This document shows positions 18,753-45,707 of a stretch of DNA of 64,000 nucleotides, one piece after another. The DNA is from Alphaproteobacteria bacterium. GTDB lineage: Bacteria; Pseudomonadota; Alphaproteobacteria; Rickettsiales; UBA3002. A program made the translations under genes and the position numbers. The first letter of the stretch is position 1. Each line of letters starts with the position of its first letter. Location of the stretch: NCBI GenBank assembly GCA_033763655.1, contig JANRKD010000001.1:64023-128022 (forward strand). Reading direction: 5' to 3'. The notes beneath the pieces are model-generated. The model was not told the origin of the DNA, did no database searches, and saw only the letters and a list, made by a program, of their open reading frames with translations.

Positions 18753-20335
<1,583 letters not shown>

Positions 20336-27741: not shown

Positions 27742-28677
27742 ATGCAAGTCACCGCAACAACAGGCCGCTATATCAAACTGGGCAGTAGCGGCAAATGGGA
27801 GCAGTTGTGCCTGCAAGATGGCACATTGCGCCTCGGGTATTATGAGGCGCCACATTCACCTGCTGTGGCGGGTGATAAGGAAGCAATCAAAGCAGCCTAT
27901 GCCTATCTTGATGGTAGCGTGGCGAGCGACAATGCGCGGCAAGTGCTACAGTTTTATGATCCTTCTGACACGGTGATTTGGATCACCTTCGCAGATGGAT
28001 TTCTATGGTGGTGTAAAGCAGCACCAGAAGTAGAATATTTTGGCAACGATCGTGCACTATACACCGATGGCAGCCGATTGCGCCGAGCCATCGACGGCTG
28101 GAGCAACCGCACACTTCAGGGCAAACCACTGCGGATGATGGAGCTGAAGGGCGAACTCACAAAAACCTCTGCCTACCGCAAAACCATCTGCGATTTGAAG
28201 CCGCATCTATTGGCCTACTTACTGCGCAAAATTAACGACGAAGCGCTGCCTGAAATTATTGCAGCGCAGCAGGCCATGAACGACCTCCAGGTCTCCATGC
28301 GCACGATGATCGCCATGCTACATTGGCGGGACTTTGAGCTGCTTGTGGAGTTGATATTCAGCCACAGCGGTTGGCAACGCGTCAGTGTCGTTGGCGAGAC
28401 TATGAAAACGACCGACATAGAACTCCGCCTGCCTATCACCAGCGAGCGCGCCATGGTGCAGATTAAATCCGAAACCACCCAAGCGGAGTTCAATGAATAT
28501 CTGACTGCCTTTGAACGATGGGAGATGCAGCGTTTATTCTACATCTATCACACAGCCAAAGTGCCGCTAATATCAGGCACGCATGATCCTCGTGTTACTC
28601 TCATTGGTCCAGATCAGTTAGCCTCGCTCGTGTTGCGCGCGGGCCTCGTTGAGTGGGTGATGGAGAAGGCGGGGTAG
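27742..28677 (+). CDS. Protein with C-terminal Mrr-like restriction-endonuclease (PD-(D/E)xK) domain
   Basis: WRDFELLVELIFSHSGWQRVSVVG...TDIELRL...AMVQIKS matches the Mrr catalytic-domain pattern. The N-terminal 200 aa are unknown. Starts 2 nt after the GIY-YIG gene. Confidence 0.65.
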   Translation: MQVTATTGRYIKLGSSGKWEQLCLQDGTLRLGYYEAPHSPAVAGDKEAIKAAYAYLDGSVASDNARQVLQFYDPSDTVIWITFADGFLWWCKAAPEVEYFGNDRALYTDGSRLRRAIDGWSNRTLQGKPLRMMELKGELTKTSAYRKTICDLKPHLLAYLLRKINDEALPEIIAAQQAMNDLQVSMRTMIAMLHWRDFELLVELIFSHSGWQRVSVVGETMKTTDIELRLPITSERAMVQIKSETTQAEFNEYLTAFERWEMQRLFYIYHTAKVPLISGTHDPRVTLIGPDQLASLVLRAGLVEWVMEKAG

Positions 28678-30723: not shown

Positions 30724-32394
30724 ATGGCCTCTCACATGGGCGTGCAGACGCTAGCCACAAGTCGTAATTCGCAAGTCGAGTATATGGTTCATTTCGTTCT
30801 AGAAAGAGCGATGAAAGCACTTAGTGATAAAGGCCTTATTAGCAGTGCTAGGGTATCAGCCCAAAAGCAATACGTCTCCGAAATTGCTAGTGATATTTGG
30901 GATCATATTGCTACTGGCGTACAAAAAAATGGAAAGCCATTTCAATTATGGTGTCAAACTACATGTTACAAAGGAAATGGCACTGGCGCTCCCGAACCTA
31001 ATAAAACATATGAAGTTCGAGAAACGTTGGTTGAGGGCATTACAATTCGAGATCTCGTAAATCTGCAGAACGAGAATGAAGTTAGAACTCTGCATTTTAC
31101 TGTGGGAGATAGCGATTATACATACAAATGGTTTCTTGGCCTCAAATCAGCGAGCTATGATAAATCACTTTATGTCGGAAAAAAGGGCCTAGACGTTTTC
31201 GAGCTCCTAGATGCCGCCCTGCGCGGTGCCATCACAGAATCGGCAAAGGCTACGCTTTTGGAGAAATGCATTGTTGAGAAGAGTGAGCTCGGCAATCTTA
31301 TTTTGAATGCAGCCAATGAGCTGTTTGCTTGGTTCGTCGAAGGGGGGATGCCCAAGTCCAATATAGCCGATTTACAATGGCAACTGGTAAATACAGAACA
31401 TAAAAGTCATGCAGGAAAATGGCCAGATTTCTCCAAGTTAAAAGGGGAAGATATTAAGGGACGGACCAATAGGTTTCTGTTCGACGCCGACATCGTCGAA
31501 TCAGATACGCTAATACCGCGTGCTGCGGCTAAAATTCTTGAACGAAAACCATTCCTTTCGGCCGCATTAAAAGCCGTTGCAGATTGGCCCACGTTTGAGA
31601 CAGAGGTCCAGAGAATCTATGAACGGTCTGGTAGCATAGAAGATTTTGTGCGCAGACTATGGAATGCACCATCACCTTTACATTTATTAACTAGGCGCAT
31701 TCTTTTGAGAATTCATACTGGCGATAGTATTGCATACGTTCAAGATAGAGACGTCGCGGGTATTTCTGAGCATAATTTATATGCAGGATCGCATTCTGAA
31801 AAACAGGTGAGATTGATATGTAACCGAATTGTAGACGATATTTCTAAAGGCGGCATAACCACATCCCTAATGCTCATGAATAGTATATCGACGCAGGGAA
31901 AAAGAATTGTCAATCAGGCGCGGTGGTTTGAAGCAAAGAATGGCACTGAATTAAAACCTAGCTTTGAATATGCCGAAATGGCATTGCAGTCTGCGGGCTT
32001 TAAGGTGCTATCGCCAGCAGCTGCTAAATTCAAAGCCAATGGATATCATGGCGAAATTACCGTCGACAATGTAAGGCCATATACAAATCTGAAGGCAGTT
32101 TGTAATGCTGACGGAAAAATACTGGCCATTTTAAAGGCCAAATTCTTCCGAATTCAGGAATTCCCTAGAAGATGTAAGGAAGAATCATTTGTTGGACTAA
32201 CGCTAAAGTATAAATTTGAAAATGGTGCATTCGTACCGCGGCATAATATTCCTGTTGTTATGTTTGTGGACATGGCAGTTGATTGTAAACCACCAGAATA
32301 TGCCGTTAAGCGGCTAATAAGCTTTGGATGGGATGTTGTTTTCTCTACTGATGAACTAATTTCTTTGATGCATAAAATTGATCAGGGTTCATAG
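30724..32394 (+). CDS. Uncharacterised 556-aa protein (candidate nuclease/effector of the adjacent methyltransferase locus)
   Basis: Long clean ORF in very AT-rich DNA. No motif I can name. First gene of a two-gene operon convergent on the MTase operon. Confidence 0.7.
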   Translation: MASHMGVQTLATSRNSQVEYMVHFVLERAMKALSDKGLISSARVSAQKQYVSEIASDIWDHIATGVQKNGKPFQLWCQTTCYKGNGTGAPEPNKTYEVRETLVEGITIRDLVNLQNENEVRTLHFTVGDSDYTYKWFLGLKSASYDKSLYVGKKGLDVFELLDAALRGAITESAKATLLEKCIVEKSELGNLILNAANELFAWFVEGGMPKSNIADLQWQLVNTEHKSHAGKWPDFSKLKGEDIKGRTNRFLFDADIVESDTLIPRAAAKILERKPFLSAALKAVADWPTFETEVQRIYERSGSIEDFVRRLWNAPSPLHLLTRRILLRIHTGDSIAYVQDRDVAGISEHNLYAGSHSEKQVRLICNRIVDDISKGGITTSLMLMNSISTQGKRIVNQARWFEAKNGTELKPSFEYAEMALQSAGFKVLSPAAAKFKANGYHGEITVDNVRPYTNLKAVCNADGKILAILKAKFFRIQEFPRRCKEESFVGLTLKYKFENGAFVPRHNIPVVMFVDMAVDCKPPEYAVKRLISFGWDVVFSTDELISLMHKIDQGS

Positions 32395-32397
32395 CTT

Positions 32398-33240
32398 ATG
32401 TATTTAGAAAAACTTAGAGCCTTATGTGCGACCACTGCTCCTATCTTTCAAGATATAATTACGCATAATTCTGCGATTACTTCTTCAACGTGGAACGCTA
32501 AGGTAGAGACTGGAAAGGCTGTAGAATTTTATAGTCTGTGCTGTCTGGCTGCAGGTTTAGAAAAATTAGGAATCGGAATCTCAATACCAGCAATATATCT
32601 TGAGCACCCTGATTTATTTTATTTGCGCAATATTCTACCTCGTCACCATGGCACTCAAGCAGGTCATTCTGCAGCAATAAATAGCATTCCTTTGAGCGAT
32701 AGGTTTGTTGCGGCTCTTACACCCAAATTTATATTCGAAACGGTCGGTTCAAAATATGGGATCTACAGAGAAGGTTTTCCTATTCATCTCATTGAACACT
32801 TAAATAAGGGTGAAGAAGAATATCTAGATCGACCAGATGTATTGATTTGTAGAGGAACAATGACGAGCAAACTAATTAGCTCGGAAAGAATTGCCTTCAC
32901 TTATGAATCCCAAAGCGGCCGATGCGAAGGAATTCTGCGAATCAAAAACGATGCGTTAATTCCGATTATTTCGTATGACTCCAATTTGCTTAATGTCCCT
33001 GTGGTGGGGATCATCGAATGCAGTGTTAGCAAGGGTGATACAAAGGCCGAAGAGCAATTACGACGATACCTCGCCATTTACAGTGGCGCAACATCACCAG
33101 TATCATTACTAATCAATGGTAGGCGCCAGAAATGTCCTGCATACACACACGAAGCGTTTATCGATATGGACTTTGATAATGCAGAAGCCATAACAGGCTT
33201 TACTGCTGTTATTGATCGATTCAGCAAAGCGATTATCTGA
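32398..33240 (+). CDS. Uncharacterised 280-aa protein, possible PD-(D/E)xK nuclease
   Basis: Starts 3 nt after the previous stop. YLDRPDVLICRG ... VVGIIECSVSKGD is a weak PD...E..K-like pattern. Confidence 0.6.
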   Translation: MYLEKLRALCATTAPIFQDIITHNSAITSSTWNAKVETGKAVEFYSLCCLAAGLEKLGIGISIPAIYLEHPDLFYLRNILPRHHGTQAGHSAAINSIPLSDRFVAALTPKFIFETVGSKYGIYREGFPIHLIEHLNKGEEEYLDRPDVLICRGTMTSKLISSERIAFTYESQSGRCEGILRIKNDALIPIISYDSNLLNVPVVGIIECSVSKGDTKAEEQLRRYLAIYSGATSPVSLLINGRRQKCPAYTHEAFIDMDFDNAEAITGFTAVIDRFSKAII

Positions 33241-33243
33241 TAA

Positions 33244-34359
33244 TTAGAGATAGGAAAAAATTTGCCGGAATAATTGCAACGCAAAGAGCGGCGGCACGGC
33301 ATTGCCAATTTGCCTCGCCTGAGAGGTGGTTTTACCATAGAAGTTTATCCAATCAGGAAACGTCTGAAGTCTGGCTTGCTCGCGAATAGTTAGTCTTCTT
33401 GTTCCCTTGAGAGTGACTTTTTTTTGGCGAGAAGTGGATGTTTTGGGCGCATCCAGCCATGCTGGATGGCAATTCCGGAGAAGCTCCTGCAATTCATTTT
33501 GTGGCGCTCTGAATGCAATATCCTCCAGAGGTACAGGGCCAGGAACAAAGGCGGATTGCGCAGGCTCTTCACAAAGAGCAAATTCATCACCTCGAACACG
33601 AAGAGTAAACGCGGGCTCAGTATGAGCATTCCTATTTCTCGGTCCCCGCATTTGCGAATTTGCACGATGCGCAAAGAAATTACCCTGTGGCAGCACAATG
33701 TCCCCTAGTGCGTCATTGACAGAGTTATACGCATGAGCCTTGTCACAGGGGGCTATCTTCTTTCTTGGATCATAGCAAAATGCTTCAGGCCAAACGAAGT
33801 CTATGCCGCATCGGTTGCCTACGAGAATTGCTCGCTTCCGAAGCTGCGGCACGCCAAATTCTGCCATATTTACGACTTTGTAGTCTACCTTATACCCTAT
33901 GGATGCGAAATCCTCTAAAATTTGCCGTAGGATTATGCCTTGGCCAATATTTGTGATGCCTTCCACGTTTTCTAAGACAAACCATTTTGGCTGATAGAAT
34001 TTAACAATCTCTACAAAATGTTTGTATAAGTGATTCCGTGGGTCATCCACAAACCGTAATCCCCGAGCCAAAGAAAATCCCTGACAGGGCGGGCCACCGA
34101 TAATTACGTCAACATCACCTTTACGACTTTTGGGTTTCCAATTGCTGATATTTGCACATGCGACATCATCTGCATAAGGAAAGATAGATTGATATGTCTT
34201 AATCGAATCAGAATCAAAATCGACTGCTCCTAGAGGCTGGCCACCTGCGATAGCGAAACCCACACTTAGGCCTCCGGCTCCTGAAAATAAATCAAGACAG
34301 GTTGGTTTTTGTTTAAGAGGTTGATGAATATCCTCTAATATTGCGGCCATTTTGTTCAT
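33244..34359 (-). CDS. DNA cytosine-5 methyltransferase
   Basis: LFSGAGG (motif I), GGPPCQGFS (IV), ENV (VI), QIGNAVPP (X). Confidence 0.95.
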   Translation of the reverse strand: MNKMAAILEDIHQPLKQKPTCLDLFSGAGGLSVGFAIAGGQPLGAVDFDSDSIKTYQSIFPYADDVACANISNWKPKSRKGDVDVIIGGPPCQGFSLARGLRFVDDPRNHLYKHFVEIVKFYQPKWFVLENVEGITNIGQGIILRQILEDFASIGYKVDYKVVNMAEFGVPQLRKRAILVGNRCGIDFVWPEAFCYDPRKKIAPCDKAHAYNSVNDALGDIVLPQGNFFAHRANSQMRGPRNRNAHTEPAFTLRVRGDEFALCEEPAQSAFVPGPVPLEDIAFRAPQNELQELLRNCHPAWLDAPKTSTSRQKKVTLKGTRRLTIREQARLQTFPDWINFYGKTTSQARQIGNAVPPLFALQLFRQIFSYL

Positions 34360-36215
34360 AATGATTCACCATAAAATTCTTCGACAGCTTGGTCTAATAG
34401 GGACTTAGATTCAAGTGTTTCCCCGTGCTGGATAATTGATGTCACAAACCCGACTATCTTGGCTCGAGCTGCGCTCTCAACCTGAAAATGTTTGGGTAAT
34501 GGAAAATCTTTTACAAACGTTTTCTTAAATCTGAATCTTCCTTGTGCTTTTAAATTTCCAACGCTCGAACAGCGATTTGAAAAATACACTTTAGCCATTT
34601 CACTGTTAAGTATGCCTAGCAATGCCAAGTCATTTGAATCAATGAAATATGCCCCATCGGCAACTAAAGTTCCTTCGGTACAAATGGAGAATCTTTGTTT
34701 GGCGGAAAGATCGGGAAAAATGATTTTCTCCTGCAACATATCTTTATAGTAAGAGCAGGCTCTTAAACGATACCACTTCTCAGCAGAATCAACCTCGTTC
34801 CGTTTTTCTAAGATACCGCGATACTTTTCTAGATACTGCAAAAGCTCCCGCGGAGGAATAATAGAATCTTTTGGTATAAAAAGCAGATGGCTCAATTTCT
34901 TGACGCCATGCCAACTTAAGATATTGGATGGAAGGACCACAGGTCTGATCCAATCTTTCTTAATATCCGCGCTGAAATCAGCGACCTGCTCTTCATTCAA
35001 ATAGAATGCTTCAGAATAGCCTGTTCTAATGCCAGAAAAAACAGTTATTCCGAATTCTGATAATGGCTTTGTATTTTTGAGAAAGCCATCCATCTTCTTA
35101 AAACTGACCATGTCGGAATGGAAAGACCAGCCGTGCGAATCTGACATATCCGCATGAACATCCAGCATTGAAGCGAGGCTAGTCGAGAGTTGTTCTAGAT
35201 CATCTGTCTTATTCACTTCGCAATATTTTATGGTGCTATTTGGGGAATCTGTTTTTGACAGTGCATAAATGGCGGTGTGAACGCTTGCTCCACTAAATAC
35301 TGGAGTTTCACCTAAATCTATCAGTGTAGCTAGATTCGCATTCTTTTTGATAAATTTTCTTACGTTCGCACTGCTTGTCCCGCGAAGAAACCCTGCTGGA
35401 GTAATAAATGCTAAGACTCCATTATTTTTTAGGCAGTTAATGCTGCTGGATATGAAGTAATTATAAAGATCCGCGGAACCATAAAACGATTCTGGGAAAC
35501 TGAGCTTTAAAGAATTTCGATAAGACGCAGATAGGCGCGTTGACCTTACATATGGGGGGTTTCCGATAACAAAATCGTAGGTTGGCTTAGTGCTTAGAAG
35601 ATCGCTCGATTCCTTATTACGCTCCAGAAAATCGCCGCACTCGAAAGTCAGCCTACCTGATTTAATATATTCTTCAATATCTAGCTTATTTCTTTCTAAT
35701 TCAATCTTGATGTTGCAGAGGCTTAAAAAGACTGCGCTAGGGGAAAGATCATTAATCGCTATTATAGGCAGATTATCAATTTCTTTTGGATAAATGCCAA
35801 GATATGCCTCGATTAATGCTAAGGGAAACACCCCTGCTCCAACGCATGGGTCGAGCCAATTTAATTCCCGAATATCATAACGTGCCTCAGATACAATTTT
35901 ACGCGTCTCTAGTGCTAACGAAACGATCAGATTGGCAACATTCCGTGGCGTTTCCACTACCCCATTATTCAGTCGGCTTCCGCTCCATGACTCATCGCCA
36001 AAAAACAAGCGAGCTATTGAATCGTATGATTGTCCTTTTAGAACAACTAACCGAAGCAATTCTATGAATGTTGCGGGAGCAATAAGATCCAACCTTTGTA
36101 TGACTTCCAGGGACCTCTCAATAGTATTGAAAGATGTTGATGCATGCGTTTGCTTTCGGCCTGCACCTAGCCCATCAGGAATGACGACCCGAACTCGATT
36201 CATCAAGGCTGTCAT
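34356..36215 (-). CDS. N6-adenine DNA methyltransferase (gamma-class, Eco57I/TaqI-like architecture)
   Basis: LDPCVGAGVF (motif I) followed by VIGNPPYV (motif IV), with a long C-terminal target-recognition region. 4-nt overlaps with both neighbours. Confidence 0.85.
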   Translation of the reverse strand: MTALMNRVRVVIPDGLGAGRKQTHASTSFNTIERSLEVIQRLDLIAPATFIELLRLVVLKGQSYDSIARLFFGDESWSGSRLNNGVVETPRNVANLIVSLALETRKIVSEARYDIRELNWLDPCVGAGVFPLALIEAYLGIYPKEIDNLPIIAINDLSPSAVFLSLCNIKIELERNKLDIEEYIKSGRLTFECGDFLERNKESSDLLSTKPTYDFVIGNPPYVRSTRLSASYRNSLKLSFPESFYGSADLYNYFISSSINCLKNNGVLAFITPAGFLRGTSSANVRKFIKKNANLATLIDLGETPVFSGASVHTAIYALSKTDSPNSTIKYCEVNKTDDLEQLSTSLASMLDVHADMSDSHGWSFHSDMVSFKKMDGFLKNTKPLSEFGITVFSGIRTGYSEAFYLNEEQVADFSADIKKDWIRPVVLPSNILSWHGVKKLSHLLFIPKDSIIPPRELLQYLEKYRGILEKRNEVDSAEKWYRLRACSYYKDMLQEKIIFPDLSAKQRFSICTEGTLVADGAYFIDSNDLALLGILNSEMAKVYFSNRCSSVGNLKAQGRFRFKKTFVKDFPLPKHFQVESAARAKIVGFVTSIIQHGETLESKSLLDQAVEEFYGESL

Positions 36216-36468: not shown

Positions 36469-37026
36469 TTAACCAGTGGCTCTCCCCAGCTGAATATCCA
36501 CGCCTGTCATACGGAATCTGTAGGTCAGCATTTCATTGCTGACCATATAATGATTGCCCGCCGTTTGGTTGCACCAACCCTTATTGCGAATGTGGATCAA
36601 GGCAGGGCGCGGAAGCAGCAATGCTCCGCCTAGCCAGTCAGCTTCATCTTCCTGTTCTTGATCGAAGTGACTAGGTATAAATGATCCGTCTGAGAGTTTG
36701 TGGCCTTTTGCTACACTATGGCCAAGAGTAATATGTGCCAACTCATGCATCAGAACGCTGTTGATGCGCGGTTTAGACTGGTTCGGATCATAAACGACCA
36801 TATGGTGCTTGCCTATTTTTAAGGTAAAGGCTGACCAAGCTTCTGCACTGAGCGCATCATTCAAAACTTTTTGAGGCACCTCAGGTATTTCAGCGGCGCT
36901 TTTGACCCTGATTTGTAGATGGGCGGCTAAGTCAAACGCGTTGAGTGGGGCGCACTCACCCAAGCCAAGCTGCTTACGCATCTCAACAGATCGTCGTTCG
37001 CTTTGCGCTTTGAAACCACGTTTCAA
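36469..37026 (-). CDS. ImmA/IrrE-family zinc metallopeptidase
   Basis: HELAHITLGH (HExxH) in a protein of about 185 aa, immediately downstream of an XRE gene. Confidence 0.85.
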   Translation of the reverse strand: MKRGFKAQSERRSVEMRKQLGLGECAPLNAFDLAAHLQIRVKSAAEIPEVPQKVLNDALSAEAWSAFTLKIGKHHMVVYDPNQSKPRINSVLMHELAHITLGHSVAKGHKLSDGSFIPSHFDQEQEDEADWLGGALLLPRPALIHIRNKGWCNQTAGNHYMVSNEMLTYRFRMTGVDIQLGRATG

Positions 37027-37028
37027 TG

Positions 37029-37388
37029 TTAATGGCTCGCAGACTTAATCTCTTTTTCAAAAGAATTATATGCTGCGAGGATTAGCTGACCGAGTGCTTG
37101 CGCAGTTTTCTGATCTTTTGATTTTTTAGCTTTAAACATAATCTGGATTTCGGGCGATGATGACTGACTGGGGGCATCGGCTCCAAAACCAAAATAGCCA
37201 CGCGCATCAAGCTCGGCCCACGCGAATACTTTCTTCATCGTTTCCATGTCCGACAAATGTCCGTTCTCTATTCTGGATAGCGTAGCGGGGCTTGTGCCTA
37301 TTTCTTTAGCGGCTGCTCGTATTCCCATGCTGCCGCGCTTACGTGCGATCAACTGGCCTATTTCTTCAGGGGATAAATCGGGGTTCAT
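37029..37388 (-). CDS. XRE-family HTH regulator
   Basis: GIRAAAKEIGTSPATLSRIENGH. Confidence 0.85.
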   Translation of the reverse strand: MNPDLSPEEIGQLIARKRGSMGIRAAAKEIGTSPATLSRIENGHLSDMETMKKVFAWAELDARGYFGFGADAPSQSSSPEIQIMFKAKKSKDQKTAQALGQLILAAYNSFEKEIKSASH

Positions 37389-37415
37389 AAAAAACCGTTT
37401 CAGTTATGAAAAAAC

Positions 37416-37433
37416 TGTTTCAAAGTTGAAACA
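37416..37433. promoter_or_regulatory. Palindromic candidate operator in the divergent XRE / Ubl-operon spacer
   Basis: tgtttcaa-ag-ttgaaaca, with extra GTTTCA half-sites nearby (ccgtttcag, cagttttcag). Confidence 0.4.
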
Positions 37434-37545
37434 CATGTGATAGTGTCTCATATGTAAGACAGTTTTCAGCCAACTCCTAGATCTCGCACGGGTCAAGCAA
37501 AAAGTGTCTTTCATCAAGAACTTCTAGAAACTTTTGGAGACCACG

Positions 37546-38232
37546 ATGACTAAAAATGACACAGAAGAAACAAATGCCAAGCAGTTATCCTTCGCGGTTA
37601 ACGGCACTAACTATAAATCCAACGACCCCGTCCTTTCAGGACGGGACATATTACAAAAAGCTGGCTTCAAGCCCGCCAGTGATCACGTGCTGATCGAGTT
37701 GACCAACCCTGGTACGCGTTCAGTAGGCCTCGATGAAACGGTCGATCTTGCAATCCCTGGCCGCGAAGCGTTCTACGCTTTTTCATCAGACCGCGTCTAT
37801 AACTTCACCGCTGATGAGCTCGGGTATGAATGGGGTGCCCCCACCATTGCCGAGGCCCAATTACGTGAGGTCACGGGTGCAGATGATAGCTTAGTCTTCG
37901 TTCTGGAGCGTACGGACCAGCCAGATCAGGTGATCGAAGAAGGCGAAAGCGTAGATTTGAACGCGAAAGGCACAGAGCATATTCGCACCAAGAAGCGCAT
38001 TGTGCACATCATCGTGAACGCACGCGAGTATGAAGTCCCGGGCCCCAAGATCACCTATGATCAAGTAGTGGCTCTTGCCTTCAACCCTGTGCCTAGCGGT
38101 CCAGAGGTTCTTTTTACCGTGACGTACCGCAAGGGGCCACCTCAAAACCCCAAAGGCACTTTGCCTGAGGGCCAGTCGGTAACCATCAAAAACGGGATGA
38201 TCTTCAATGTCACGCAGACCAATCGCTCGTAG
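37546..38232 (+). CDS. Tandem beta-grasp ('multiubiquitin'-like) protein
   Basis: Two internally similar segments (SFAVNGTNYKSNDPVLSGRDILQKAGF... and HIIVNAREYEVPGPKITYDQVVALAF...). C-terminus KNGMIFNVTQTNRS. Start placed at ATG 37546 (GGAGA SD) rather than TTG 37534. Confidence 0.7.
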   Translation: MTKNDTEETNAKQLSFAVNGTNYKSNDPVLSGRDILQKAGFKPASDHVLIELTNPGTRSVGLDETVDLAIPGREAFYAFSSDRVYNFTADELGYEWGAPTIAEAQLREVTGADDSLVFVLERTDQPDQVIEEGESVDLNAKGTEHIRTKKRIVHIIVNAREYEVPGPKITYDQVVALAFNPVPSGPEVLFTVTYRKGPPQNPKGTLPEGQSVTIKNGMIFNVTQTNRS

Positions 38233-39391
38233 TCCAGACCTTGTGCGCTTGCTGGCGGATGGATACCACATTTCCATCCGCCATGGCCACCTGGTAGCAA
38301 CGAAGATCCCGTACGTGAATGCCCAACGGCAAGTCAAATACGGTATCCTCGTTGCTCCACTAACGCTGCGTAATGATGTGGCGATCCAGCCCGCCGACCA
38401 CACCATAATGTTCGGGGGAGAATATCCCTGCGATCAACATGGCAAGCCTATCGAAGCTGTTCGCAATAACTCGGATAGTTTGCGAATAGCGGACGACTTG
38501 ATCGTGCAACACAGGTTCTCCGCCAAGCCCTCAGCGGGAAATTATGTGGATTTCCACGAAAAGATCGTAACGTACGCGGCGGCCATCAGTGGCCCCGCAC
38601 AGATCATCGATCCGGCCGTTAAGCCCAATCCTGGCGGCTTTGTACCCGCAGATGAAACGGAGGATTCCATCTTTAATTATATGGATACGGCTTCCCCGCG
38701 TGCAGAAATCACAGCCGTTACCGCCAAGCTTGAATGTCGTAAACTGGTGATCATCGGATTGGGTGGTACTGGGAGTTATATCCTCGACCAGGTCAGCAAA
38801 ACGCCTATAGAGCAGATCCATTGTTATGATGGCGATATCTTCGAGCAACATAATGCCTTTCGTGCCCCTGGTGCTGCCTCGGGCGCTGACCTAGAGGCAG
38901 TCATGAAGAAGGTCGACTACTACAAGGCCATATACTCAAAAATGCATCGCGGTATTGTTGCCCATCCGTACTATGTCGATGCCAGCAACATCGACGAACT
39001 GCGCGATGCCGACTTTGTCTTTATTTGTATCGATGACGGCATTGCGCGGCGGTTTATCATTGAGAAGCTGGAAGAGTTCGGCATCAGTTTTATCGATGTT
39101 GGCATGGGTGTTGTTCTTTGTAGTGACTCACTCGGTGGCATCGTACGCACAACGGCTAGCACCCCAACAGCGCGCGATCATGTTTGCAAACGCGTCTCGC
39201 TATCCAACACGGAGGATGATAAGAACGAGTATGATAAGAACATCCAAGTTGCCGACTTGAACGCTTTGAATGCGGCGCTGGCTGTTATCAAATGGAAGAA
39301 GTTAAGGGGGTTCTACGTGGACTTGGAGAAAGAGCACCACAGCACCTACACCATCGATGGCAACACCATCGACAGTGAAGACAGCAAATGA
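38207..39391 (+). CDS. ThiF/E1-like adenylyltransferase with an extra N-terminal domain of about 170 aa
   Basis: Rossmann motif LVIIGLGGTGSYILDQV and ThiF-like fold signature downstream. Overlaps the Ubl gene by 26 nt. Confidence 0.8.
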   Translation: MSRRPIARSPDLVRLLADGYHISIRHGHLVATKIPYVNAQRQVKYGILVAPLTLRNDVAIQPADHTIMFGGEYPCDQHGKPIEAVRNNSDSLRIADDLIVQHRFSAKPSAGNYVDFHEKIVTYAAAISGPAQIIDPAVKPNPGGFVPADETEDSIFNYMDTASPRAEITAVTAKLECRKLVIIGLGGTGSYILDQVSKTPIEQIHCYDGDIFEQHNAFRAPGAASGADLEAVMKKVDYYKAIYSKMHRGIVAHPYYVDASNIDELRDADFVFICIDDGIARRFIIEKLEEFGISFIDVGMGVVLCSDSLGGIVRTTASTPTARDHVCKRVSLSNTEDDKNEYDKNIQVADLNALNAALAVIKWKKLRGFYVDLEKEHHSTYTIDGNTIDSEDSK

Positions 39392-39825
39392 AGTCAAACT
39401 TTAGCATAGCGCATGAATTTGTTGAGTTCATTCCTCGAGACATGGAGGAGCGAACGCTCTACATCGCCATGGAATTTGCCACAGCTAGTCATAGATGCTT
39501 CTGCGGTTGCGGTGCCGAAGTGGTCACGCCGCTAAGCCCAACAGCGTGGCAACTCTCCTATGACGGAGAAAATGTCTCTCTTAACCCATCCATTGGCAGC
39601 TGGAGCCTACCATGCCAGTCACATTACTGGATTCGTCGAGGAAAAGTTGAGTGGTCATATGCTATGTCGAAAGAAGAGATCGCAGCCGTTAAGCGGCGCG
39701 ATCAAGAAGATACTTTGCATTATCATGGAGCGGTGACCGCCAGTGATGCGCTACAGCGGCCTGCCGCAGAACCATTGCAGCATAAAGGTGCACTTGCTCG
39801 ACTTATGGCCTGGCTTTCCAAATAA
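39388..39825 (+). CDS. Small Cys-rich protein (DUF6527-like), third gene of the Ubl operon
   Basis: HRCFCGCGAEV ... LPCQSHYW (possible Zn site). ATGA overlap with the E1-like gene. Confidence 0.6.
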   Translation: MKSNFSIAHEFVEFIPRDMEERTLYIAMEFATASHRCFCGCGAEVVTPLSPTAWQLSYDGENVSLNPSIGSWSLPCQSHYWIRRGKVEWSYAMSKEEIAAVKRRDQEDTLHYHGAVTASDALQRPAAEPLQHKGALARLMAWLSK

Positions 39826-39826
39826 C

Positions 39827-40831
39827 CTAAAGTCCCCGCGCAGATTGTTTAATGGGTGGTCTGCTTTTCACCGAGCTAAACCCCATATCGAGTATCTTGC
39901 CATTATCGACCGTCACGGTTGCAGCGGCGAGGTGCCCGTCTTTGGCAACGCTTTGGTCGATGCAAATGGCATTGGGTGATTCGACCGTCGGATGTTCACC
40001 ACGCTGCCAATAGTGACCGAAAAAGACGGTGCTATCTTCGAGATTCTGCACCTCACGCATGCGCGCCCTGATATCATCTGGCGCGGGGACATTCGGGATG
40101 TTCTCTGGCGGCACATCGAGAATCACATCCGCGAGCTTCAAATTGGCATCATCGGGATTTGCCCACCATTTCAGCCGTGCCAATTTACGAGGTGTGCCAT
40201 CCGCATCATAGAATTTAACACCGGGAGGAAGCGGCACCTCTACCCCTTTGGTCAGCAATTCAATCGCGTCACAGCCGGGTGTATATTTCACCGCCAATTC
40301 ATGCCAACGCGTGGGATTTATCGTGCGGTCTGCTCTGAGCAACCCTTCTTTGTTAAGGTAGTCGACCGCTGGCTGGTCCCACAGCGCATGCACAAAGCGC
40401 AGCCCTTCCAGTTCGAGATATACTGGCAACGATTTTATTCACTCAATGTTTTGGGCGGCTCGCTCGGGGTTCTGGGTTGCTTCATCCAAGAACGCCTGAT
40501 GCTGGTGGACGTTCCTTGTTCCGTGCCCGCGCAATGGCCTCAACTCGCCACTTTTGTTGGGGTGCTGCGTGTGAAACAGCGAGGCATTCAGCTCATGATT
40601 ACCCATAATCGCATGCGCATGACCAGCCTGCACCATGCCACGCACGATGTCGATAACCTCGAAATTCTCTCCGCCACGATCAATATAATCGCCGGTGAAT
40701 ACAGCCATGCGGTTGGGCTCAGGGGGAATGTAAACACCATTGCCATCGCGCACGTAGCCAAGCTTCTCAAGCAATGCCTTCAGTTCAACGGCATGGCCGT
40801 GAATATCGCCGATAATGTCGTATTTTTTCAT
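39827..40831 (-). pseudogene. ApaH/PrpE-like metallophosphoesterase interrupted by one in-frame TGA (40439-40441)
   Basis: DIIGDIHGH, GDYIDRG and GNHE in the upstream ORF. The downstream ORF is in the same frame, 3 codons after the stop, and continues the family (FVHALWD...FFGHYW). Confidence 0.8.
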
Positions 40832-40971: not shown

Positions 40972-41403
40972 ATGGCTGACCCTCAGAAACCAGCACAACC
41001 TGCATCAGCACCCGCCGTCGCCCAGCCTCCGGCGTCGGCAGCGAATGCACCTGCTGCATCGCCAGCGAAAAAGCCGCTGACTCCTGCAGAGGCAGAACTC
41101 CAAAGACTTAAAGGTGATAACTGGGCCGACCCATTTTTCGATCCTAAAATAGCTCGTGAAGTTGCGGATCAACAAACACGCGAAGCAGCTATGAGGGCTA
41201 TTGAGTGGAAGAAAGAGCGCGGTGTGTACCCATGGGAAGAACCCGAATCATCGCAGGATCAACGTGTTGCCCGGCAACAAGAAGAATGGTTGCGGCGCGC
41301 AGGAATTGATCCAGAAAAGAGTCGAGATGAATATCTGGGCCGAATTAAAGAGGCAATCCGTCAGATCGAAGCACAAAAAAAAACTGACGGGCGAGGTCGG
41401 TAG
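40972..41403 (+). CDS. Hypothetical protein (143 aa), Ala/Pro-rich N-terminus
   Basis: ORF ending 3 nt before the zeta-like gene. Confidence 0.5.
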   Translation: MADPQKPAQPASAPAVAQPPASAANAPAASPAKKPLTPAEAELQRLKGDNWADPFFDPKIAREVADQQTREAAMRAIEWKKERGVYPWEEPESSQDQRVARQQEEWLRRAGIDPEKSRDEYLGRIKEAIRQIEAQKKTDGRGR

Positions 41404-41406
41404 CTG

Positions 41407-43653
41407 ATGGCGGATGATGCTTGGCACGTTCAATCTTCCGCCGCTAATCATCGCCCCTCAATAGAGACGCGACCAGCCAGTGAAACGCGCCTACTTCATG
41501 AGCTTATCATTCAAGCTGTAACGGAACGTCGCATCGACGTTGACCCCACCCAGCCATACGATAAACAACTGCAAACAACGATACGTGGTGTTCAGGCCAC
41601 CGATGAATATAAAGACCTATTGTCGCGGGGAAATGTTACGCAGACTGAAGTGGCAACGTTGCTGGACCATCAGCATCTGCAACGTCTTCCTACGGTTGAT
41701 TCTGCCAACCATGTGACCATGATGATGGCGACAGGTGGCCCTGCCACAGGCAAAAGCAGCATTATTAAAATAATCCAGCGCACGAATCCCGAGATTTATA
41801 GCAATACTGCCAAGATTAACCCCGATGATTACAAGCCACTGCTGGCTGACCGCAAAATCTATGGCAAAGATTTTGCGGATGTTGCGCATGCAGAAAGTTC
41901 AAAACTAGCCGCTGAAATTATGACACGGCTCGAGCAGAAAATGTCTGCTGGTCGTTCACCGCACATTGTTATGGATGTAGTGGCAACGAGCGAACATCGG
42001 ATGAATTTTGCCAAGCAAGCGGGACAATTGATCGTGGTGACTGGCGTTGTTCCAGTGGATGTTGCTGTGGATCGCTCATATGATCGAGCGAAAGATCTGG
42101 TAGACGGTAGAAGAATATCAACGGAGGTGGTGATCAGTGGAGCACGCAATGTTGCTGCCGAATTGCCGAGGGTATTCGATCACCCGGATGTAAAATTTTT
42201 AGTTATCAATACGGATGTACCGTATGGTTCGCCGAACAAGCCCGTTGCACAGCTTAAAAATGTCAATGGCAAGCAGACGCTTGTTGTCTCCGATCCTGAT
42301 ATATTTATCGATTTGGTTGGGCGCCAAAATCTGAATATCCATGCTCAGGCGCCCACCGAATTGTATCGACCGCAGGATCGATCCCCAGCAACCATTGCGC
42401 AAGGACTCAAGGCTTATACTGATAAGGGTGTGACACTGGCATTCCTTGATTCGCATGGGCAAGTGGCGATGACAATGGGTCAAAATGGGGCGCAACAGAT
42501 TCATTCCCTCGCGTCGAAACTAGGTAACAGCTTCTATGCTGAGTTAGCTGGTGCAGTAACTGCTTTGGCAGGGCGGCAAACCATCGAGCAACGTGCACAA
42601 GTTGAGGAGCGCACGACCACTGATGCCGCACAAGGAAAACGGACGCAGAATCCGATTCCCGTTGTCGTGCCGCCAAATGACCATGCTCAAACGCCGCCGC
42701 CGGTGGTGGTCACGAGACAAACGCCACCAGAGTCACAACCCGTGCGCATTGCTATGCCGAGCAAAATCGGTATTGCAGGCACCGCTGTGTCGTTGGCTAT
42801 CGGTCCCGTGTATGAAGCAGGGCTAGCGGCTGCGAATGATGGTAACGCCAGTGATATTACAAAAGCAGGTTTGCAGGGCCTTGCCAACAGCGCATTGCCA
42901 GGGGTGACAAATGGGTTCAAGAACATCACCGAGAACAACCAGCACCAGAACTGGCTCGACCAAACATTGAATGCTGGCACAACTGCGACGCAGGGAACGG
43001 CTGTAGGCGCATTGGCGGTGGCAGGGAGTTCTGCGCTTGCTGCACCTGTTACGGGTGGCACATCGCTGACAGTAACCGCAGGGTCGCTGGTAGTGGCTGG
43101 CGTCGCTGGAGTAGCAAACCTCGGCATTGGTGTAGCGCATGATCTGACGTATTGGACGGGTCTCTCGAAACAGGGCGGTCTCATCACTGGTATCGTCAAT
43201 ATGGGAGTGCAATTAGCTGACTCCAAAGCTGCCCACCGTGCAGGTGATTGGGTGATGAATAACGATGACAAGATCCAACAGCAGCTTGCAGCAAGGGGCA
43301 TGCAGCCCAATCAACTTGCTGCCGTCGATGAAAATAAAGACGGGAAAGTAAGTGCACAGGAAACACGTAACTATCTTATCAGACACCATGTCCCAGCCGA
43401 GCAAGTAAACAGCCTGCCAGCGAAGCAATTAGCTGATAAGCTGATATCTGTCGTAGCACCAGCAAACCATGCCGCAGTGCAGCCTCCAGCACACACGCAT
43501 CTTTCGCCCGAAATGCAACGCGCGTTAGGTATGGCTGCCAGTTGTAATCTTAGCGCATCTATTCGGTGCGATACACAACACCAAGGGCCATTGCAGTCTC
43601 CAGTAGGGTTGCAGGCTACAACGCAGCGCGCACAAGCTGCTCAAGGACGATAG
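41407..43653 (+). CDS. Zeta-toxin/AAA_33-like P-loop kinase domain protein with Gly/Ala-rich hydrophobic region and EF-hand
   Basis: Walker A MATGGPATGKSS followed by INPDDYK. Residues about 470-600 are a G/A/V-rich hydrophobic stretch. Canonical EF-hand loop DENKDGKVSAQE. Confidence 0.7.
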   Translation: MADDAWHVQSSAANHRPSIETRPASETRLLHELIIQAVTERRIDVDPTQPYDKQLQTTIRGVQATDEYKDLLSRGNVTQTEVATLLDHQHLQRLPTVDSANHVTMMMATGGPATGKSSIIKIIQRTNPEIYSNTAKINPDDYKPLLADRKIYGKDFADVAHAESSKLAAEIMTRLEQKMSAGRSPHIVMDVVATSEHRMNFAKQAGQLIVVTGVVPVDVAVDRSYDRAKDLVDGRRISTEVVISGARNVAAELPRVFDHPDVKFLVINTDVPYGSPNKPVAQLKNVNGKQTLVVSDPDIFIDLVGRQNLNIHAQAPTELYRPQDRSPATIAQGLKAYTDKGVTLAFLDSHGQVAMTMGQNGAQQIHSLASKLGNSFYAELAGAVTALAGRQTIEQRAQVEERTTTDAAQGKRTQNPIPVVVPPNDHAQTPPPVVVTRQTPPESQPVRIAMPSKIGIAGTAVSLAIGPVYEAGLAAANDGNASDITKAGLQGLANSALPGVTNGFKNITENNQHQNWLDQTLNAGTTATQGTAVGALAVAGSSALAAPVTGGTSLTVTAGSLVVAGVAGVANLGIGVAHDLTYWTGLSKQGGLITGIVNMGVQLADSKAAHRAGDWVMNNDDKIQQQLAARGMQPNQLAAVDENKDGKVSAQETRNYLIRHHVPAEQVNSLPAKQLADKLISVVAPANHAAVQPPAHTHLSPEMQRALGMAASCNLSASIRCDTQHQGPLQSPVGLQATTQRAQAAQGR

Positions 43654-44816: not shown

Positions 44817-45707
44817 TTACCCTCGCTCAGATAATAGGTTAGCGAGTTGTTTGAGCATGGTATCAAGTCCCTCGGCACGGAGCAGTGTAGTAAAATGACC
44901 TTCCAGCTTGAGACACCGCAGTGCTTCCACCACAAACAGTAACTGACTGTTCACGGCCTCGGCGCGACGAGTGATCAGACTCTTGCGCTCCACCTCGCGC
45001 TTATAGGTTTTAACAAGTTCGCGGGCAGTGTATCCTTCATCGCGCTTTCCGCCGTAGCCTCTGGTGCCACTGCGAAAGGTTTTGCCACCACGCTGTCGTG
45101 TCTCAACCAACTTCTTGGCAGCCATGAACTTGTGCCCACTCAGCTCGCCAGTTTCATAGGCCTCACGCAAATGCTGTTGTTCATTTTGCGGCGACTGAAC
45201 GATATTGATCGCCAGCATGATTGGCATCTGGCCGGTCTCAACAGCGGAGACCAGCCGTTCCTCACCATGCTCCAGCAGCGTCAGCACCCCTTGAATATGG
45301 TCTGATGTATGGCCAGTTTTAGCAGCGATAGCTTTGGCATCGTAACCTTGGCCGCGCAGGAGCTCGACACCTTGCAGCAAATCCATCGGTTTATGCTTAC
45401 GGCGGGCGACATTCTCTACCAGGCTCATGATAAGGGCTTGTTCTTCGCTCGCTGCAATGACGATCGCAGGTATTGTAGCCTGACCGCAGGCCATGAACGC
45501 CTCAAGACGTCCCTGACCACAAACAAGATCATAGGTTTTGCCGTCAACCTTCGCTTTACGACGGGCCACGGTGATTGGGCGCTTGAGGCCGACTTTGGCG
45601 ATGTTTTGCACCACCCCTTCAAATAGCTTAGGATTGCGTACCCGTGGGTTGAGGATGTGGATCTGGTTGATCGGGATCATCTGTATGGAGGCTTGTTGCT
45701 TGCTCAT
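44817..45707 (-). CDS. ParB-like nuclease-domain protein
   Basis: IPINQIHILNPRVRN ... YDLVCGQGRLEA. Confidence 0.8.
   Translation of the reverse strand: MSKQQASIQMIPINQIHILNPRVRNPKLFEGVVQNIAKVGLKRPITVARRKAKVDGKTYDLVCGQGRLEAFMACGQATIPAIVIAASEEQALIMSLVENVARRKHKPMDLLQGVELLRGQGYDAKAIAAKTGHTSDHIQGVLTLLEHGEERLVSAVETGQMPIMLAINIVQSPQNEQQHLREAYETGELSGHKFMAAKKLVETRQRGGKTFRSGTRGYGGKRDEGYTARELVKTYKREVERKSLITRRAEAVNSQLLFVVEALRCLKLEGHFTTLLRAEGLDTMLKQLANLLSERG

What the first reader, a model, noticed from the sequence alone, without database searches (positions are those of the whole stretch)
37546..39825. Minimal three-gene ubiquitin-like conjugation operon (tandem beta-grasp protein, E1-like enzyme with extra N-domain, Cys-rich small protein)
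Seen in the sequence:
- Three translationally coupled genes (26-nt overlap, then an ATGA overlap).
- Gene 1 contains two internally similar beta-grasp-length repeats and ends ...NGMIFNVTQTNRS, with no terminal Gly-Gly.
- Gene 2 has a ThiF/E1 Rossmann motif (IIGLGGTGSY) preceded by about 170 aa of unknown fold.
- Gene 3 is 145 aa with CFCGCG...CQSH.
- No JAB/MPN peptidase and no recognisable UBC-type E2 gene is present.

Established knowledge, from memory: multiubiquitin + ThiF + DUF6527-type neighbourhoods were predicted bioinformatically. Related 'Bil' and 'Bub' ubiquitination-like operons have only recently been tied to antiphage immunity.

Inference: the N-domain of gene 2 or gene 3 may supply E2-like or peptidase activity. 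The target and biological role here are unknown. The location inside a defence-type island supports an immunity role.
Basis: partly seen in the sequence, partly recalled or inferred. Interest (0 to 1): 0.75.

Follow-up and report, generated by a model that had tools for sequence, protein, structure and literature searches.

The report
Type II Bub ubiquitin-like conjugation operon
The three genes are an intact copy of a bacterial ubiquitin-like protein-tagging system (a "Type II Bub" operon) that was characterised biochemically in 2024-2026, so this is a correct find of a known kind of system rather than a new one.

Summary
Three coupled genes lie at 37546-39825 (+), with a 26-nt overlap and then an ATGA overlap. 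They match Pfam Multi_ubiq (E 1.5e-42), DUF6791+ThiF (5e-51; NCBIfam PRK06153, 9e-155) and DUF6527 (1.8e-25).

This is the gene set of a Type II Bub operon (formerly "6E.2/DUF6527"; Ye et al., bioRxiv 10.1101/2024.11.21.623953):
- BubA: the ubiquitin-like protein, here with three beta-grasp domains, not two.
- BubBD: an E2-E1 fusion.
- BubE: a Zn-binding Ser-His protease.

Every published catalytic residue is present and conserved among relatives:
- BubBD: Ser105, with His65 and Lys119/Lys107, plus Arg219 and Tyr342.
- BubE: Cys37/39/41/76, Ser68 and His79.

A divergent CapH+CapP-like regulator pair (HTH + M78 peptidase) lies upstream. The operon sits in a roughly 29-kb low-GC mobile island with serine recombinases, methyltransferases and a PD-T4-3 defence gene.

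Likely mechanism, by homology: BubA is adenylated, passed as oxyesters via Tyr342 and then Ser105, and joined to a target lysine. BubE removes the conjugates.

The biological role remains unproven: no phage protection has been shown for any Bub operon.

Two small extras: BubA ends in serine in all 48 relatives checked, and the 26-nt bubA/bubBD overlap is kept across phyla.

Verdict: new member of a known kind; low to moderate interest.

The parts
36469..37026 (-). capP-like gene: M78 (ImmA/IrrE) zinc metallopeptidase, 185 aa, with an HELAH motif
   Evidence: Pfam Peptidase_M78 E 6.9e-13. PADLOC capP E 4.9e-6. The same HTH+M78 pair sits upstream of bubA in 5 of 5 other contigs examined.
37029..37388 (-). 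capH-like gene: helix-turn-helix repressor, 119 aa, divergent from bubA
   Evidence: Pfam HTH_3 E 9.8e-6. Position and pairing with the M78 peptidase match the CapH+CapP pairs reported next to 31% of Bub operons.
37389..37545 (.). Divergent intergenic control region. It holds a perfect palindrome TGTTTCAA-N2-TTGAAACA (37416-37433) and a 20-nt direct repeat (37389-37428); this is a candidate CapH operator.
   Evidence: the repeat finder. The consensus scan found no sigma-70-like promoter here. The operator role is an inference.
37546..38232 (+). bubA: ubiquitin-like protein with three beta-grasp domains (Ubl3), 228 aa. The C-terminal residue to be activated is Ser228 (codon 38227-38229).
   Evidence: Pfam Multi_ubiq E 1.5e-42 with 3 stretches. 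Full-length match to PDB 9cd2, E. coli ZDHYS365 Ubl3, E 3.5e-31, with the same ...GMIFxVTQTxxS end. C-terminal Ser in 43/43 and 5/5 relatives.
38207..39391 (+). bubBD: E2-E1 fusion, 394 aa.
- E2-like DUF6791 domain, aa 10-161: Ser105 (codon 38519-38521), His65, Lys107/Lys119.
- E1 adenylation domain, aa ~172-394: GxGxxG at 184-189, Arg219 (38861-38863) and crossover-loop Tyr342 (39230-39232).
   Evidence: Pfam DUF6791 E 5e-51 and ThiF E 9.6e-10. NCBIfam PRK06153.1-4 E 8.9e-155. Residue conservation: S105 40/41, R219 41/41, Y342 40/41. H65, S105, K119, R219 and Y342 are invariant in 58 sequences. The AF2 model's best PDB match is the Citrobacter BubCD E1, E 4e-13.
39388..39825 (+). bubE: DUF6527 protease, 145 aa. 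It has a C4 zinc site (Cys37/39/41/76), a Ser68-His79 dyad (codons 39589-39591 and 39622-39624) and a C-terminal amphipathic tail ...GALARLMAWLSK.
   Evidence: Pfam DUF6527 E 1.8e-25; newer Pfam labels PF20137 'BubE'. C37, C39, C41, C76, S78 and H79 occur in 44/44 sequences and S68 in 43/44.

Best explanation
[quoted passage not shown] It lies under a CapH+CapP-type regulator pair and is carried on a mobile genomic island of an alphaproteobacterial MAG.

Mechanism, inferred by homology to the E. coli ZDHYS365 and Citrobacter systems:
1. CapH represses the divergent promoter. DNA damage or phage stress activates the CapP peptidase, which removes CapH, and the operon is transcribed. The overlapping genes are probably translationally coupled.
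2. [quoted passage not shown] It adenylates BubA's C-terminal carboxylate (Ser228) using ATP, with Arg219 in the active site.
3. Tyr342 on the crossover loop attacks the adenylate to form a BubA~Tyr oxyester.
4. BubA passes to Ser105 of the E2-like N-domain, probably that of the other protomer, with His65 and Lys119/Lys107 assisting.
5. BubA is transferred to a lysine of a still-unknown target, or of another BubA.
6. BubE, a zinc-stabilised Ser68-His79 protease possibly held at the membrane by its amphipathic tail, cleaves BubA-target conjugates and so restrains the system.
7. The first two beta-grasp domains of BubA may drive Ca2+-dependent dimer and filament formation. Candidate ligands Asp82 and Glu134 are conserved.

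Shown here: gene content, domain identity, conservation of every catalytic residue, the fold of the E1 domain, and the genomic context.
Inferred: all of the chemistry, the regulation, and the biological role (antiphage or stress response).
For: - Domain hits.
- Published definition and biochemistry of Type II Bub. The definition is Ubl + E2-E1 fusion + DUF6527, with no JAB peptidase. In E. coli BubBD, the R219A, Y342F and S106A mutants abolish conjugation. BubE S92A and H102A abolish cleavage.
- The window's BubBD has R219 and Y342 at identical numbering and Ser105 in HRFSAKP. All three are conserved in 41 genome-derived and 58 database homologues.
- The BubE C4 site and Ser/His dyad are conserved in 44 sequences.
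- BubA aligns full length to the solved E. coli Type II Ubl3 (9cd2), with the same C-terminal motif.
- The AF2 model of BubBD (pLDDT 81.6) best matches the Citrobacter BubCD E1, E 4e-13, followed by PaaA, MccB, ThiF and UBA5.
- Gene order bubA-bubBD-bubE is kept in all complete loci among the 47 genomes, which span many phyla.
- An HTH+M78 pair lies upstream here and in 5 of 5 other contigs. Their neighbours are integrases, Tn7-like genes, T4SS, plasmid genes and R-M systems, and never thiamine or molybdopterin genes.
- The island here carries 3 large serine recombinases, a PD-T4-3 homologue (E 8e-103) and several methyltransferases.
Against: - Nothing in the sequence contradicts the assignment.
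- The E2 fold of the N-domain could not be confirmed independently. A confident AF2 model (pLDDT 92.9) gave no Foldseek PDB hit with E <= 0.001, and Citrobacter BubB was not among the top 50. E2 and UEV folds recur only as weak hits, led by Atg3 at E 0.02. A sequence profile of the domain found no PDB relative.
- Reported BubE protease activity is very weak in vitro (48-h incubations).
- No Bub operon has yet protected against phage, so the biological role is open.
- No promoter was detected by the simple scan.
Confidence: 0.87

Rival explanations
1. The Bub conjugation machinery is the same, but its biological role is a general DNA-damage or stress response, or upkeep of the mobile element, rather than antiphage immunity.
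For: - No Bub operon has been shown to protect against phage, and the authors themselves raise this alternative.
- The regulators are DNA-damage responsive.
- The Ca2+-dependent filaments formed by Ubl3 proteins are proposed to act as a stress sensor.
- The operon travels with plasmids, ICEs and transposons.
Against: - Co-location with defence genes: PD-T4-3 and methyltransferases here; a Type ISP R-M system and helicases in the closest relative.
- CapH+CapP and CapW/BrxR mostly accompany immune operons.
- The related Bil and Type II CBASS conjugation systems are antiviral.
Confidence: 0.35
2. BubE is not primarily a deconjugating protease. Instead it acts as an E3-like or transferase adaptor, a zinc-binding domain that positions the BubA C-terminus for transfer to targets, possibly at the membrane.
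For: - Ye et al. note that the Ser/His pair next to the BubA C-terminus would fit either Ubl transfer or proteolysis, and the protease activity needed 48 h in vitro.
- The BubE fold has no structural homologues.
- No PDB sequence relative was found here.
- A conserved aromatic/basic C-terminal tail suggests localisation.
Against: [quoted passage not shown]
- Conjugation proceeds in vitro without BubE.
Confidence: 0.1
3. The trio is a sulfur-carrier or cofactor, or peptide-modifying, ThiF/MoeB/MccB-type adenylation system rather than a protein-conjugation system.
For: - The ThiF domain hit and weak NCBIfam ThiF hits.
- ThiF, MoeB and MccB appear among the structural matches.
Against: - BubA ends in Ser, not Gly-Gly.
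- No ThiS, ThiG, MoaD or MoaE, and no sulfurtransferase gene, lies nearby here or in 5 other contexts.
- The best sequence and structure match is Bub E1.
- A dedicated E2-like domain and a protease are always co-encoded.
Confidence: 0.02
4. The operon is decaying, non-functional cargo of an old island.
For: The neighbouring metallophosphoesterase gene carries an in-frame TGA.
Against: - All three ORFs are intact and full length relative to homologues.
- Every catalytic and zinc-binding residue is retained.
- The regulators are intact.
Confidence: 0.04

Closest known systems
Type II Bub operon of E. coli ZDHYS365 (BubA/Ubl3, PDB 9cd2; BubBD, WP_063617865.1; BubE). Sources: Ye et al. bioRxiv 10.1101/2024.11.21.623953; Gong et al. 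10.1101/2024.11.21.623966.
   Same: - Same three genes in the same order, with no JAB peptidase.
- BubA is a three-beta-grasp Ubl3 that aligns end to end and ends ...GMIFxVTQTxxS.
- BubBD has the same length class, with R219 and Y342 at identical numbering and the E2 serine one residue off (105 vs 106).
- BubE has the C4 site and the Ser-His dyad.
- It lies in a mobile element beside a tRNA gene.
   Different: - A different host: an alphaproteobacterial MAG.
- BubA is diverged from the E. coli protein (E 3.5e-31). The window BubBD was not compared directly with E. coli BubBD; its closest species-representative genome hit is a Caulobacter MAG at 72%.
- Nothing here has been tested biochemically.
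Type I Bub operon of Citrobacter sp. RHBSTW-00271 (BubAB, BubCD, BubE; PDB 9ea4, 9ea5, 9ea8, 9eae, 9eav)
   Same: - A homologous E1 adenylation domain; it is the best sequence and structure match in the PDB.
- A crossover-loop tyrosine, oxyester chemistry and a DUF6527 protease.
- A Ubl3-type BubA.
   Different: - In Type I the Ubl is fused to the E2, and a JAB peptidase is fused to the E1.
- Type I BubA is released by cleavage after a conserved Gly. Here BubA is made free and ends in Ser.
- The E2 catalytic environment is Ser+His+Asp in Type I and Ser+Lys+His in Type II.
- The Type II E2-like domain is so diverged that Citrobacter BubB did not appear among the top 50 fold matches.
Bil (bacterial ISG15-like) BilABCD systems
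   Same: - A Ubl (sometimes a Multi_ubiq Ubl3; PDB 8u38 is hit at E 1.5e-13) conjugated by E1/E2 enzymes.
- Located in defence islands.
   Different: - Bil uses cysteine thioesters.
- It has a separate E2, a JAB deubiquitinase and a tandem-domain E1 with a Cys domain. None of these is present here.
Type II CBASS Cap2/Cap3 (E2-E1 fusion plus JAB peptidase)
   Same: - An E2-E1 fusion architecture.
- Frequent CapH+CapP regulation.
- Weak PADLOC E1-E2 hits over the ThiF region (best E 1.6e-8).
   Different: - The substrate in CBASS is the CD-NTase C-terminus, not a Ubl.
- CBASS uses a Cys-based E2 and E1 and a JAB peptidase.
- There is no CD-NTase or effector gene here.

Membership tests
Type II Bub operon (6E.2 / DUF6527 operon) | [quoted passage not shown] | tested here: met
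   ORFs and overlaps. Pfam Multi_ubiq, DUF6791+ThiF and DUF6527, with no JAB hit. The definition is from Ye et al.. The same order is found in all complete loci among 47 genomes.
Type II Bub operon (6E.2 / DUF6527 operon) | [quoted passage not shown] | tested here: met
   Three Multi_ubiq stretches, E 1.5e-42. Full-length alignment to the three-domain crystal structure 9cd2, E 3.5e-31. The structure of the window protein itself was not predicted.
Type II Bub operon (6E.2 / DUF6527 operon) | The BubBD N-terminal domain carries the invariant catalytic Ser with accompanying invariant Lys and His (no catalytic Cys) | tested here: met
   DUF6791 E 5e-51. Ser105 40/41, and invariant in 58 sequences. 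His65 and Lys119 invariant; Lys107 38/41. Ser105 corresponds to E. coli S106.
Type II Bub operon (6E.2 / DUF6527 operon) | The N-terminal domain adopts an E2 (UBC-like) fold | tested here: inconclusive
   - AF2 N-domain model: pLDDT 92.9, with N-terminal helices, a beta-meander, a loop carrying Ser105 and a long helix.
- Foldseek vs PDB found nothing at E <= 0.001. The best hit is Atg3 at E 0.02; Atg10, UEV and UBC E2s recur among the weak hits.
- The sequence profile vs PDB found nothing.
Type II Bub operon (6E.2 / DUF6527 operon) | E1 adenylation domain with a nucleotide-binding loop, a catalytic Arg and an invariant crossover-loop Tyr in place of Cys | tested here: met
   GLGGTG at 184-189, R219 and Y342 are present. 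R219 41/41 and Y342 40/41; both invariant in 58 sequences. The top fold match is the Citrobacter BubCD E1, E 4e-13.
Type II Bub operon (6E.2 / DUF6527 operon) | BubE: DUF6527 domain with a C4 zinc site and a Ser-His dyad | tested here: met
   PF20137 E 1.8e-25. C37, C39, C41, C76 and H79 in 44/44; S68 in 43/44, within the PSIGN motif. The motif layout matches Citrobacter C57/C59/C61/C99, S92 and H102.
Type II Bub operon (6E.2 / DUF6527 operon) | ATP-dependent BubA conjugation through oxyester intermediates, and BubE deconjugation | not testable with these tools
   This is biochemistry, known only for the E. coli ZDHYS365 and Citrobacter homologues.
CapH+CapP-regulated operon | A divergent HTH repressor plus an M78 metallopeptidase immediately upstream of the regulated operon | tested here: met
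   HTH_3 E 9.8e-6 and Peptidase_M78 E 6.9e-13. PADLOC capP E 4.9e-6. A palindrome lies in the intergenic region. DNA-damage responsiveness was not tested.
Bil (BilABCD) system | A JAB deubiquitinase, a separate Cys-E2, and an E1 with tandem adenylation domains plus a Cys domain | tested here: not met
   No JAB or UBC hits. The E1 has a single adenylation domain of about 220 aa.
ThiF/MoeB sulfur-carrier system | A single-domain carrier ending in Gly-Gly, and neighbouring thiamine or molybdopterin biosynthesis genes | tested here: not met
   BubA ends ...TNRS, and Ser ends all 48 relatives. The neighbours are mobile-element and defence genes here and in 5 other contexts.

The most novel reading that the evidence does not exclude
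Type II Bub Ubls form a distinct chemical class. They are activated at an invariant C-terminal serine (consensus tail NVTxT[DN][KR]S), not at glycine. That tail is encoded inside a 26-nt out-of-frame overlap with the start of bubBD, and the overlap is preserved from Proteobacteria to Bacteroidota, Clostridia, Planctomycetota and a Nitrosopumilus MAG.

If the terminal Ser hydroxyl or the tail takes part in catalysis or recognition, Type II Bub would differ mechanistically from every Gly-terminated Ubl system. Examples would be substrate-assisted acyl transfer, or specific reading of the tail by BubE. The same would hold if the fixed overlap enforces BubA:BubBD stoichiometry.

The main text of the preprint I could read stresses only the Type I C-terminal Gly and does not mention a terminal Ser. 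I could not see its supplementary figures or the 2026 journal version.
Probability: 0.2. Interest if true: 0.5.

Novelty: new member of a known kind. Interest (0 to 1): 0.27.

Why it matters
Bub pathways are the most diverged relatives of ubiquitination known in bacteria. They are so far the only ones reported to run entirely on tyrosine and serine oxyesters instead of cysteine thioesters. Their targets and biological role are still unknown.

This locus adds a clean, intact, CapH/CapP-controlled Type II example from an alphaproteobacterial mobile island. It carries no feature that changes the picture.

Its practical value is as one more candidate for testing in a non-enterobacterial host, such as Caulobacter or other alphaproteobacteria, where phage protection or the conjugation target might finally be seen.

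The comparative by-products are small but testable additions to the family description: the invariant C-terminal Ser of Type II BubA, the fixed 26-nt bubA/bubBD overlap, and rapid switching between one-domain and three-domain Ubls among close relatives.

Tried and rejected
- Sequence-profile search of the DUF6791 N-domain (23-sequence alignment A1) against PDB sequences found only chance-level hits (E >= 0.2). It found no E2 and no BubB.
- Foldseek of the confident N-domain model against the PDB gave no significant match. E2 and UEV folds appear only as weak hits, so I could not confirm the E2 fold independently.
- BubE against PDB sequences found nothing.
- A search for att-like direct repeats bounding the island (18-50 kb, seed 14) found none. 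This is expected if serine recombinases mobilise it.
- The sigma-70 promoter and terminator scan gave nothing above background in the control region or after bubE.
- An exact-match look-up of the window's own BubBD contig found no record. The host is known only as 'MAG: Alphaproteobacteria bacterium', from the name on the 100%-identical protein.
- The older Aravind-lab papers that defined '6E' (PMC2732565, PMC5938088) are not held. That history is cited only through Ye et al.
- Considered and rejected, for the reasons in the membership table: Bil, Type II CBASS/Cap2 and ThiF/MoeB sulfur-carrier assignments.
Full report
**1. Observation**

Listing ORFs over 36.5-41 kb recovers exactly the three plus-strand genes described.
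- Gene 1: 37546-38232, 228 aa. An upstream TTG lies at 37534, but GGAG sits 8 nt before the ATG.
- Gene 2: 38207-39391, 394 aa.
- Gene 3: 39388-39825, 145 aa.

The 26-nt overlap and the ATGA overlap are real, and every quoted motif is present. The genes are far from chance ORFs:
- Gene 1: Pfam Multi_ubiq, E 1.5e-42.
- Gene 2: DUF6791 (aa 10-161, E 5e-51) plus ThiF (aa 172-300, E 9.6e-10), and NCBIfam PRK06153.1-4, E 8.9e-155.
- Gene 3: DUF6527, E 1.8e-25.

One correction is needed. Gene 1 has three beta-grasp units, not two. Pfam reports three stretches, and the protein aligns end to end with a solved three-domain protein. Pairwise internal similarity is weak, with z = 3.0, 2.3 and 0.7.

**2. 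What it is**

The only papers in the library that mention DUF6527 are two Corbett-lab preprints. Ye et al. (10.1101/2024.11.21.623953) rename the '6E/DUF6527' operons Bub, for bacterial ubiquitination-like. [quoted passage not shown] That is precisely this trio.

Their biochemistry on the E. coli ZDHYS365 Type II system shows ATP-dependent BubA conjugation that is lost with R219A (adenylation), Y342F (E1 crossover loop) and S106A (E2). For the Citrobacter Type I system they show oxyester chemistry through Tyr and Ser. They also show that BubE is a zinc-dependent Ser-His protease that removes BubA conjugates.

**3. Membership tests on the window's proteins**

*BubBD.* The protein has Arg219 and Tyr342 at the same numbering as E. 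coli, and Ser105 in HRFSAKP. I fetched 47 related loci from species-representative genomes and extracted the three genes from each.
- In 41 full-length BubBDs, S105 is kept in 40, R219 in 41, Y342 in 40, H65 in 40, K119 in 40 and K107 in 38.
- In a second set of 58 database homologues, H65, S105, K119, R219 and Y342 are all invariant.
- This fits the paper's 'invariant serine with invariant lysine and histidine' for Type II.

*BubE.* Among 44 sequences, C37, C39, C41, C76, S78 and H79 are invariant and S68 (PSIGN motif) is kept in 43. This matches the published C4 zinc site and Ser/His dyad.

*BubA.* It aligns over its full length to PDB 9cd2, the E. coli ZDHYS365 Ubl3 (E 3.5e-31). Both proteins end ...GMIFxVTQTxxS.

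*E1 domain.* An AlphaFold2 model of BubBD (pLDDT 81.6) best matches the Citrobacter BubCD E1 (E 4e-13), followed by PaaA, MccB, ThiF and UBA5. The best PDB sequence hit is also BubCD.

*E2 fold.* This is the one feature I could not confirm independently.
- The N-domain model is confident (pLDDT 92.9). It has N-terminal helices, a beta-meander, a loop bearing Ser105 and a long helix.
- Foldseek found nothing at E <= 0.001. Atg3 (E 0.02), Atg10, TSG101-UEV and several UBC E2s recur among the weak hits.
- A sequence profile of the domain found no PDB relative.
- I therefore mark this feature inconclusive. The E2 assignment rests on the published mutagenesis.

**4. Surroundings**

Divergently upstream are an HTH_3 protein (37029-37388) and an M78 peptidase with an HELAH motif (36469-37026; Pfam 6.9e-13, PADLOC capP 4.9e-6). 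This is the CapH+CapP regulator pair that Ye et al. found next to 31% of Bub operons. The 157-bp intergenic region holds a perfect TGTTTCAA-N2-TTGAAACA palindrome and a 20-nt direct repeat, which may be the operator.

The operon lies in a roughly 29-kb stretch of lower GC (0.41-0.55, against about 0.60 in the flanks). The stretch begins at a tRNA-Ile gene and contains the following:
- three large serine recombinases;
- RepB/ParB-like genes and a ParB-methyltransferase;
- a PD-T4-3 homologue (E 8e-103);
- a C5 methyltransferase and an Eco57I-like methyltransferase;
- a Zeta-toxin-domain protein.

The flanks carry housekeeping and signalling genes: a purF-like gene, a MHYT histidine kinase and a P-type ATPase. 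The 100%-identical protein in the database is labelled 'MAG: Alphaproteobacteria bacterium'.

Five other contexts of homologues all show the HTH+M78 pair upstream. Their neighbours are integrases, Tn7-like genes, a T4SS, plasmid mobilisation genes or R-M systems, and none has thiamine or molybdopterin genes.

**5. Mechanism**

This is inferred by homology.
1. CapH/CapP de-repress the operon on DNA damage.
2. The E1 domain of dimeric BubBD adenylates the BubA C-terminus.
3. Tyr342 takes BubA as an oxyester and hands it to Ser105 of the E2-like domain.
4. BubA is then joined to a lysine of an unknown target.
5. BubE (Ser68/His79, C4 zinc site) reverses the conjugation.

The Ubl3 architecture suggests Ca2+-dependent dimers and filaments, as in Gong et al.. 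The acidic residues that appear to correspond to the published intra-dimer site (Asp82, Glu134) are present.

The biological role is unproven. The authors found no phage protection, and a 2026 EMBO J paper still says so.

**6. Rivals**

- The main open alternative concerns role rather than mechanism: a stress response instead of immunity.
- An E3-like or transferase role for BubE is possible but disfavoured by the published mutant data.
- A sulfur-carrier system is excluded by the C-terminus, the gene content and the context.
- Decay is unlikely, because all ORFs and catalytic residues are intact.

**7. By-products**

- BubA ends in Ser in 43 of 43 genome loci and in 5 of 5 further contigs, and in 9cd2. 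Type I BubA ends in Gly. The preprint's main text does not mention a terminal Ser.
- The bubA stop codon lies 26 nt inside bubBD in 38 of 39 loci, across very distant phyla, and in the five extra contigs. The Ubl tail and the BubBD N-terminus are therefore co-encoded.
- A relative whose BubBD is 88% identical carries a one-domain, 96-aa BubA with a nearly identical tail. The number of Ubl domains therefore changes quickly.

**8. Verdict**

The finding is real and correctly interpreted, but the system is already described and biochemically characterised. It is a new member of a known kind. Interest is low to moderate and comes mainly from the unresolved biology of Bub systems and the small comparative observations above.

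Noticed in passing
window 38207-38232; loci L001-L053 at the bubA/bubBD junction: The 26-nt out-of-frame overlap between bubA and bubBD is kept in 38 of 39 genome loci from very distant phyla, and in 5 further contigs. The BubA tail (NVTxT[DN][KR]S) and the BubBD N-terminus (MSxRPIxRS) are dual-coded.
   Followed up: partly
window 38227-38229 (BubA Ser228); L001-L053: The last residue of Type II BubA is Ser in all 48 relatives checked and in PDB 9cd2. Type I BubA ends in Gly. The main text of the Bub preprint does not mention a terminal Ser.
   Followed up: partly
L048 9736-10026 compared with window 37546-38232: A relative whose BubBD is 88% identical has a single-domain 96-aa BubA in place of the 228-aa three-domain one, with almost the same last 19 residues. 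Ubl domain number changes among close relatives.
   Followed up: no
window 39827-40831 (-): A 335-codon calcineurin-like metallophosphoesterase ORF is interrupted by a single in-frame TGA at 40439-40441 (...QNIE*IKSLP...). It is probably a pseudogene or a sequencing error. It converges on the end of bubE.
   Followed up: partly
window 26999-27739 (+) and 27742-28677 (+): A strong homologue of the PD-T4-3 defence protein (GIY-YIG; PADLOC E 8e-103). It is followed by a protein with a weak Mrr_cat hit (Pfam E 6.5e-4, below the curated cut-off) and a weak PADLOC PDC-S02 hit (E 8.5e-6).
   Followed up: no
window 30724-36215: The lowest-GC stretch of the island (0.41-0.45). Two large ORFs (556 and 280 aa) have no Pfam or PADLOC hit. 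They lie next to a C5 cytosine methyltransferase and an Eco57I/TaqI-like N6 methyltransferase on the opposite strand. This may be an R-M system or another defence system with unrecognised effector genes.
   Followed up: no
window 40972-43653 (+): An Ala/Pro-rich 143-aa ORF is followed by a 748-aa protein with a Zeta-toxin (P-loop kinase) domain. Neither has a PADLOC match.
   Followed up: no
window 18753-20335, 24998-25852, 45704-47260: Three large serine recombinases lie within the low-GC island. The first one's 3' end overlaps a stand-alone tRNA-Ile(GAT) gene at 18753-18829. No long direct repeats flank the island.
   Followed up: partly
window 37389-37433: The capH-bubA intergenic region contains a 20-nt direct repeat (37389-37428) and a perfect palindrome TGTTTCAA-N2-TTGAAACA (37416-37433). 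This is a candidate CapH operator.
   Followed up: no
window 39775-39822 (BubE C-terminus); L048-L053 bubE: BubE proteins end in a short aromatic/basic amphipathic stretch (GALARLMAWLSK here; IWARIMTWLSK, LVRRILRWFGG, FWERVRKWWFKQ, GFWQKLKWW and GFWASIRGFFR in relatives). This fits the peripheral membrane association proposed in the literature.
   Followed up: no
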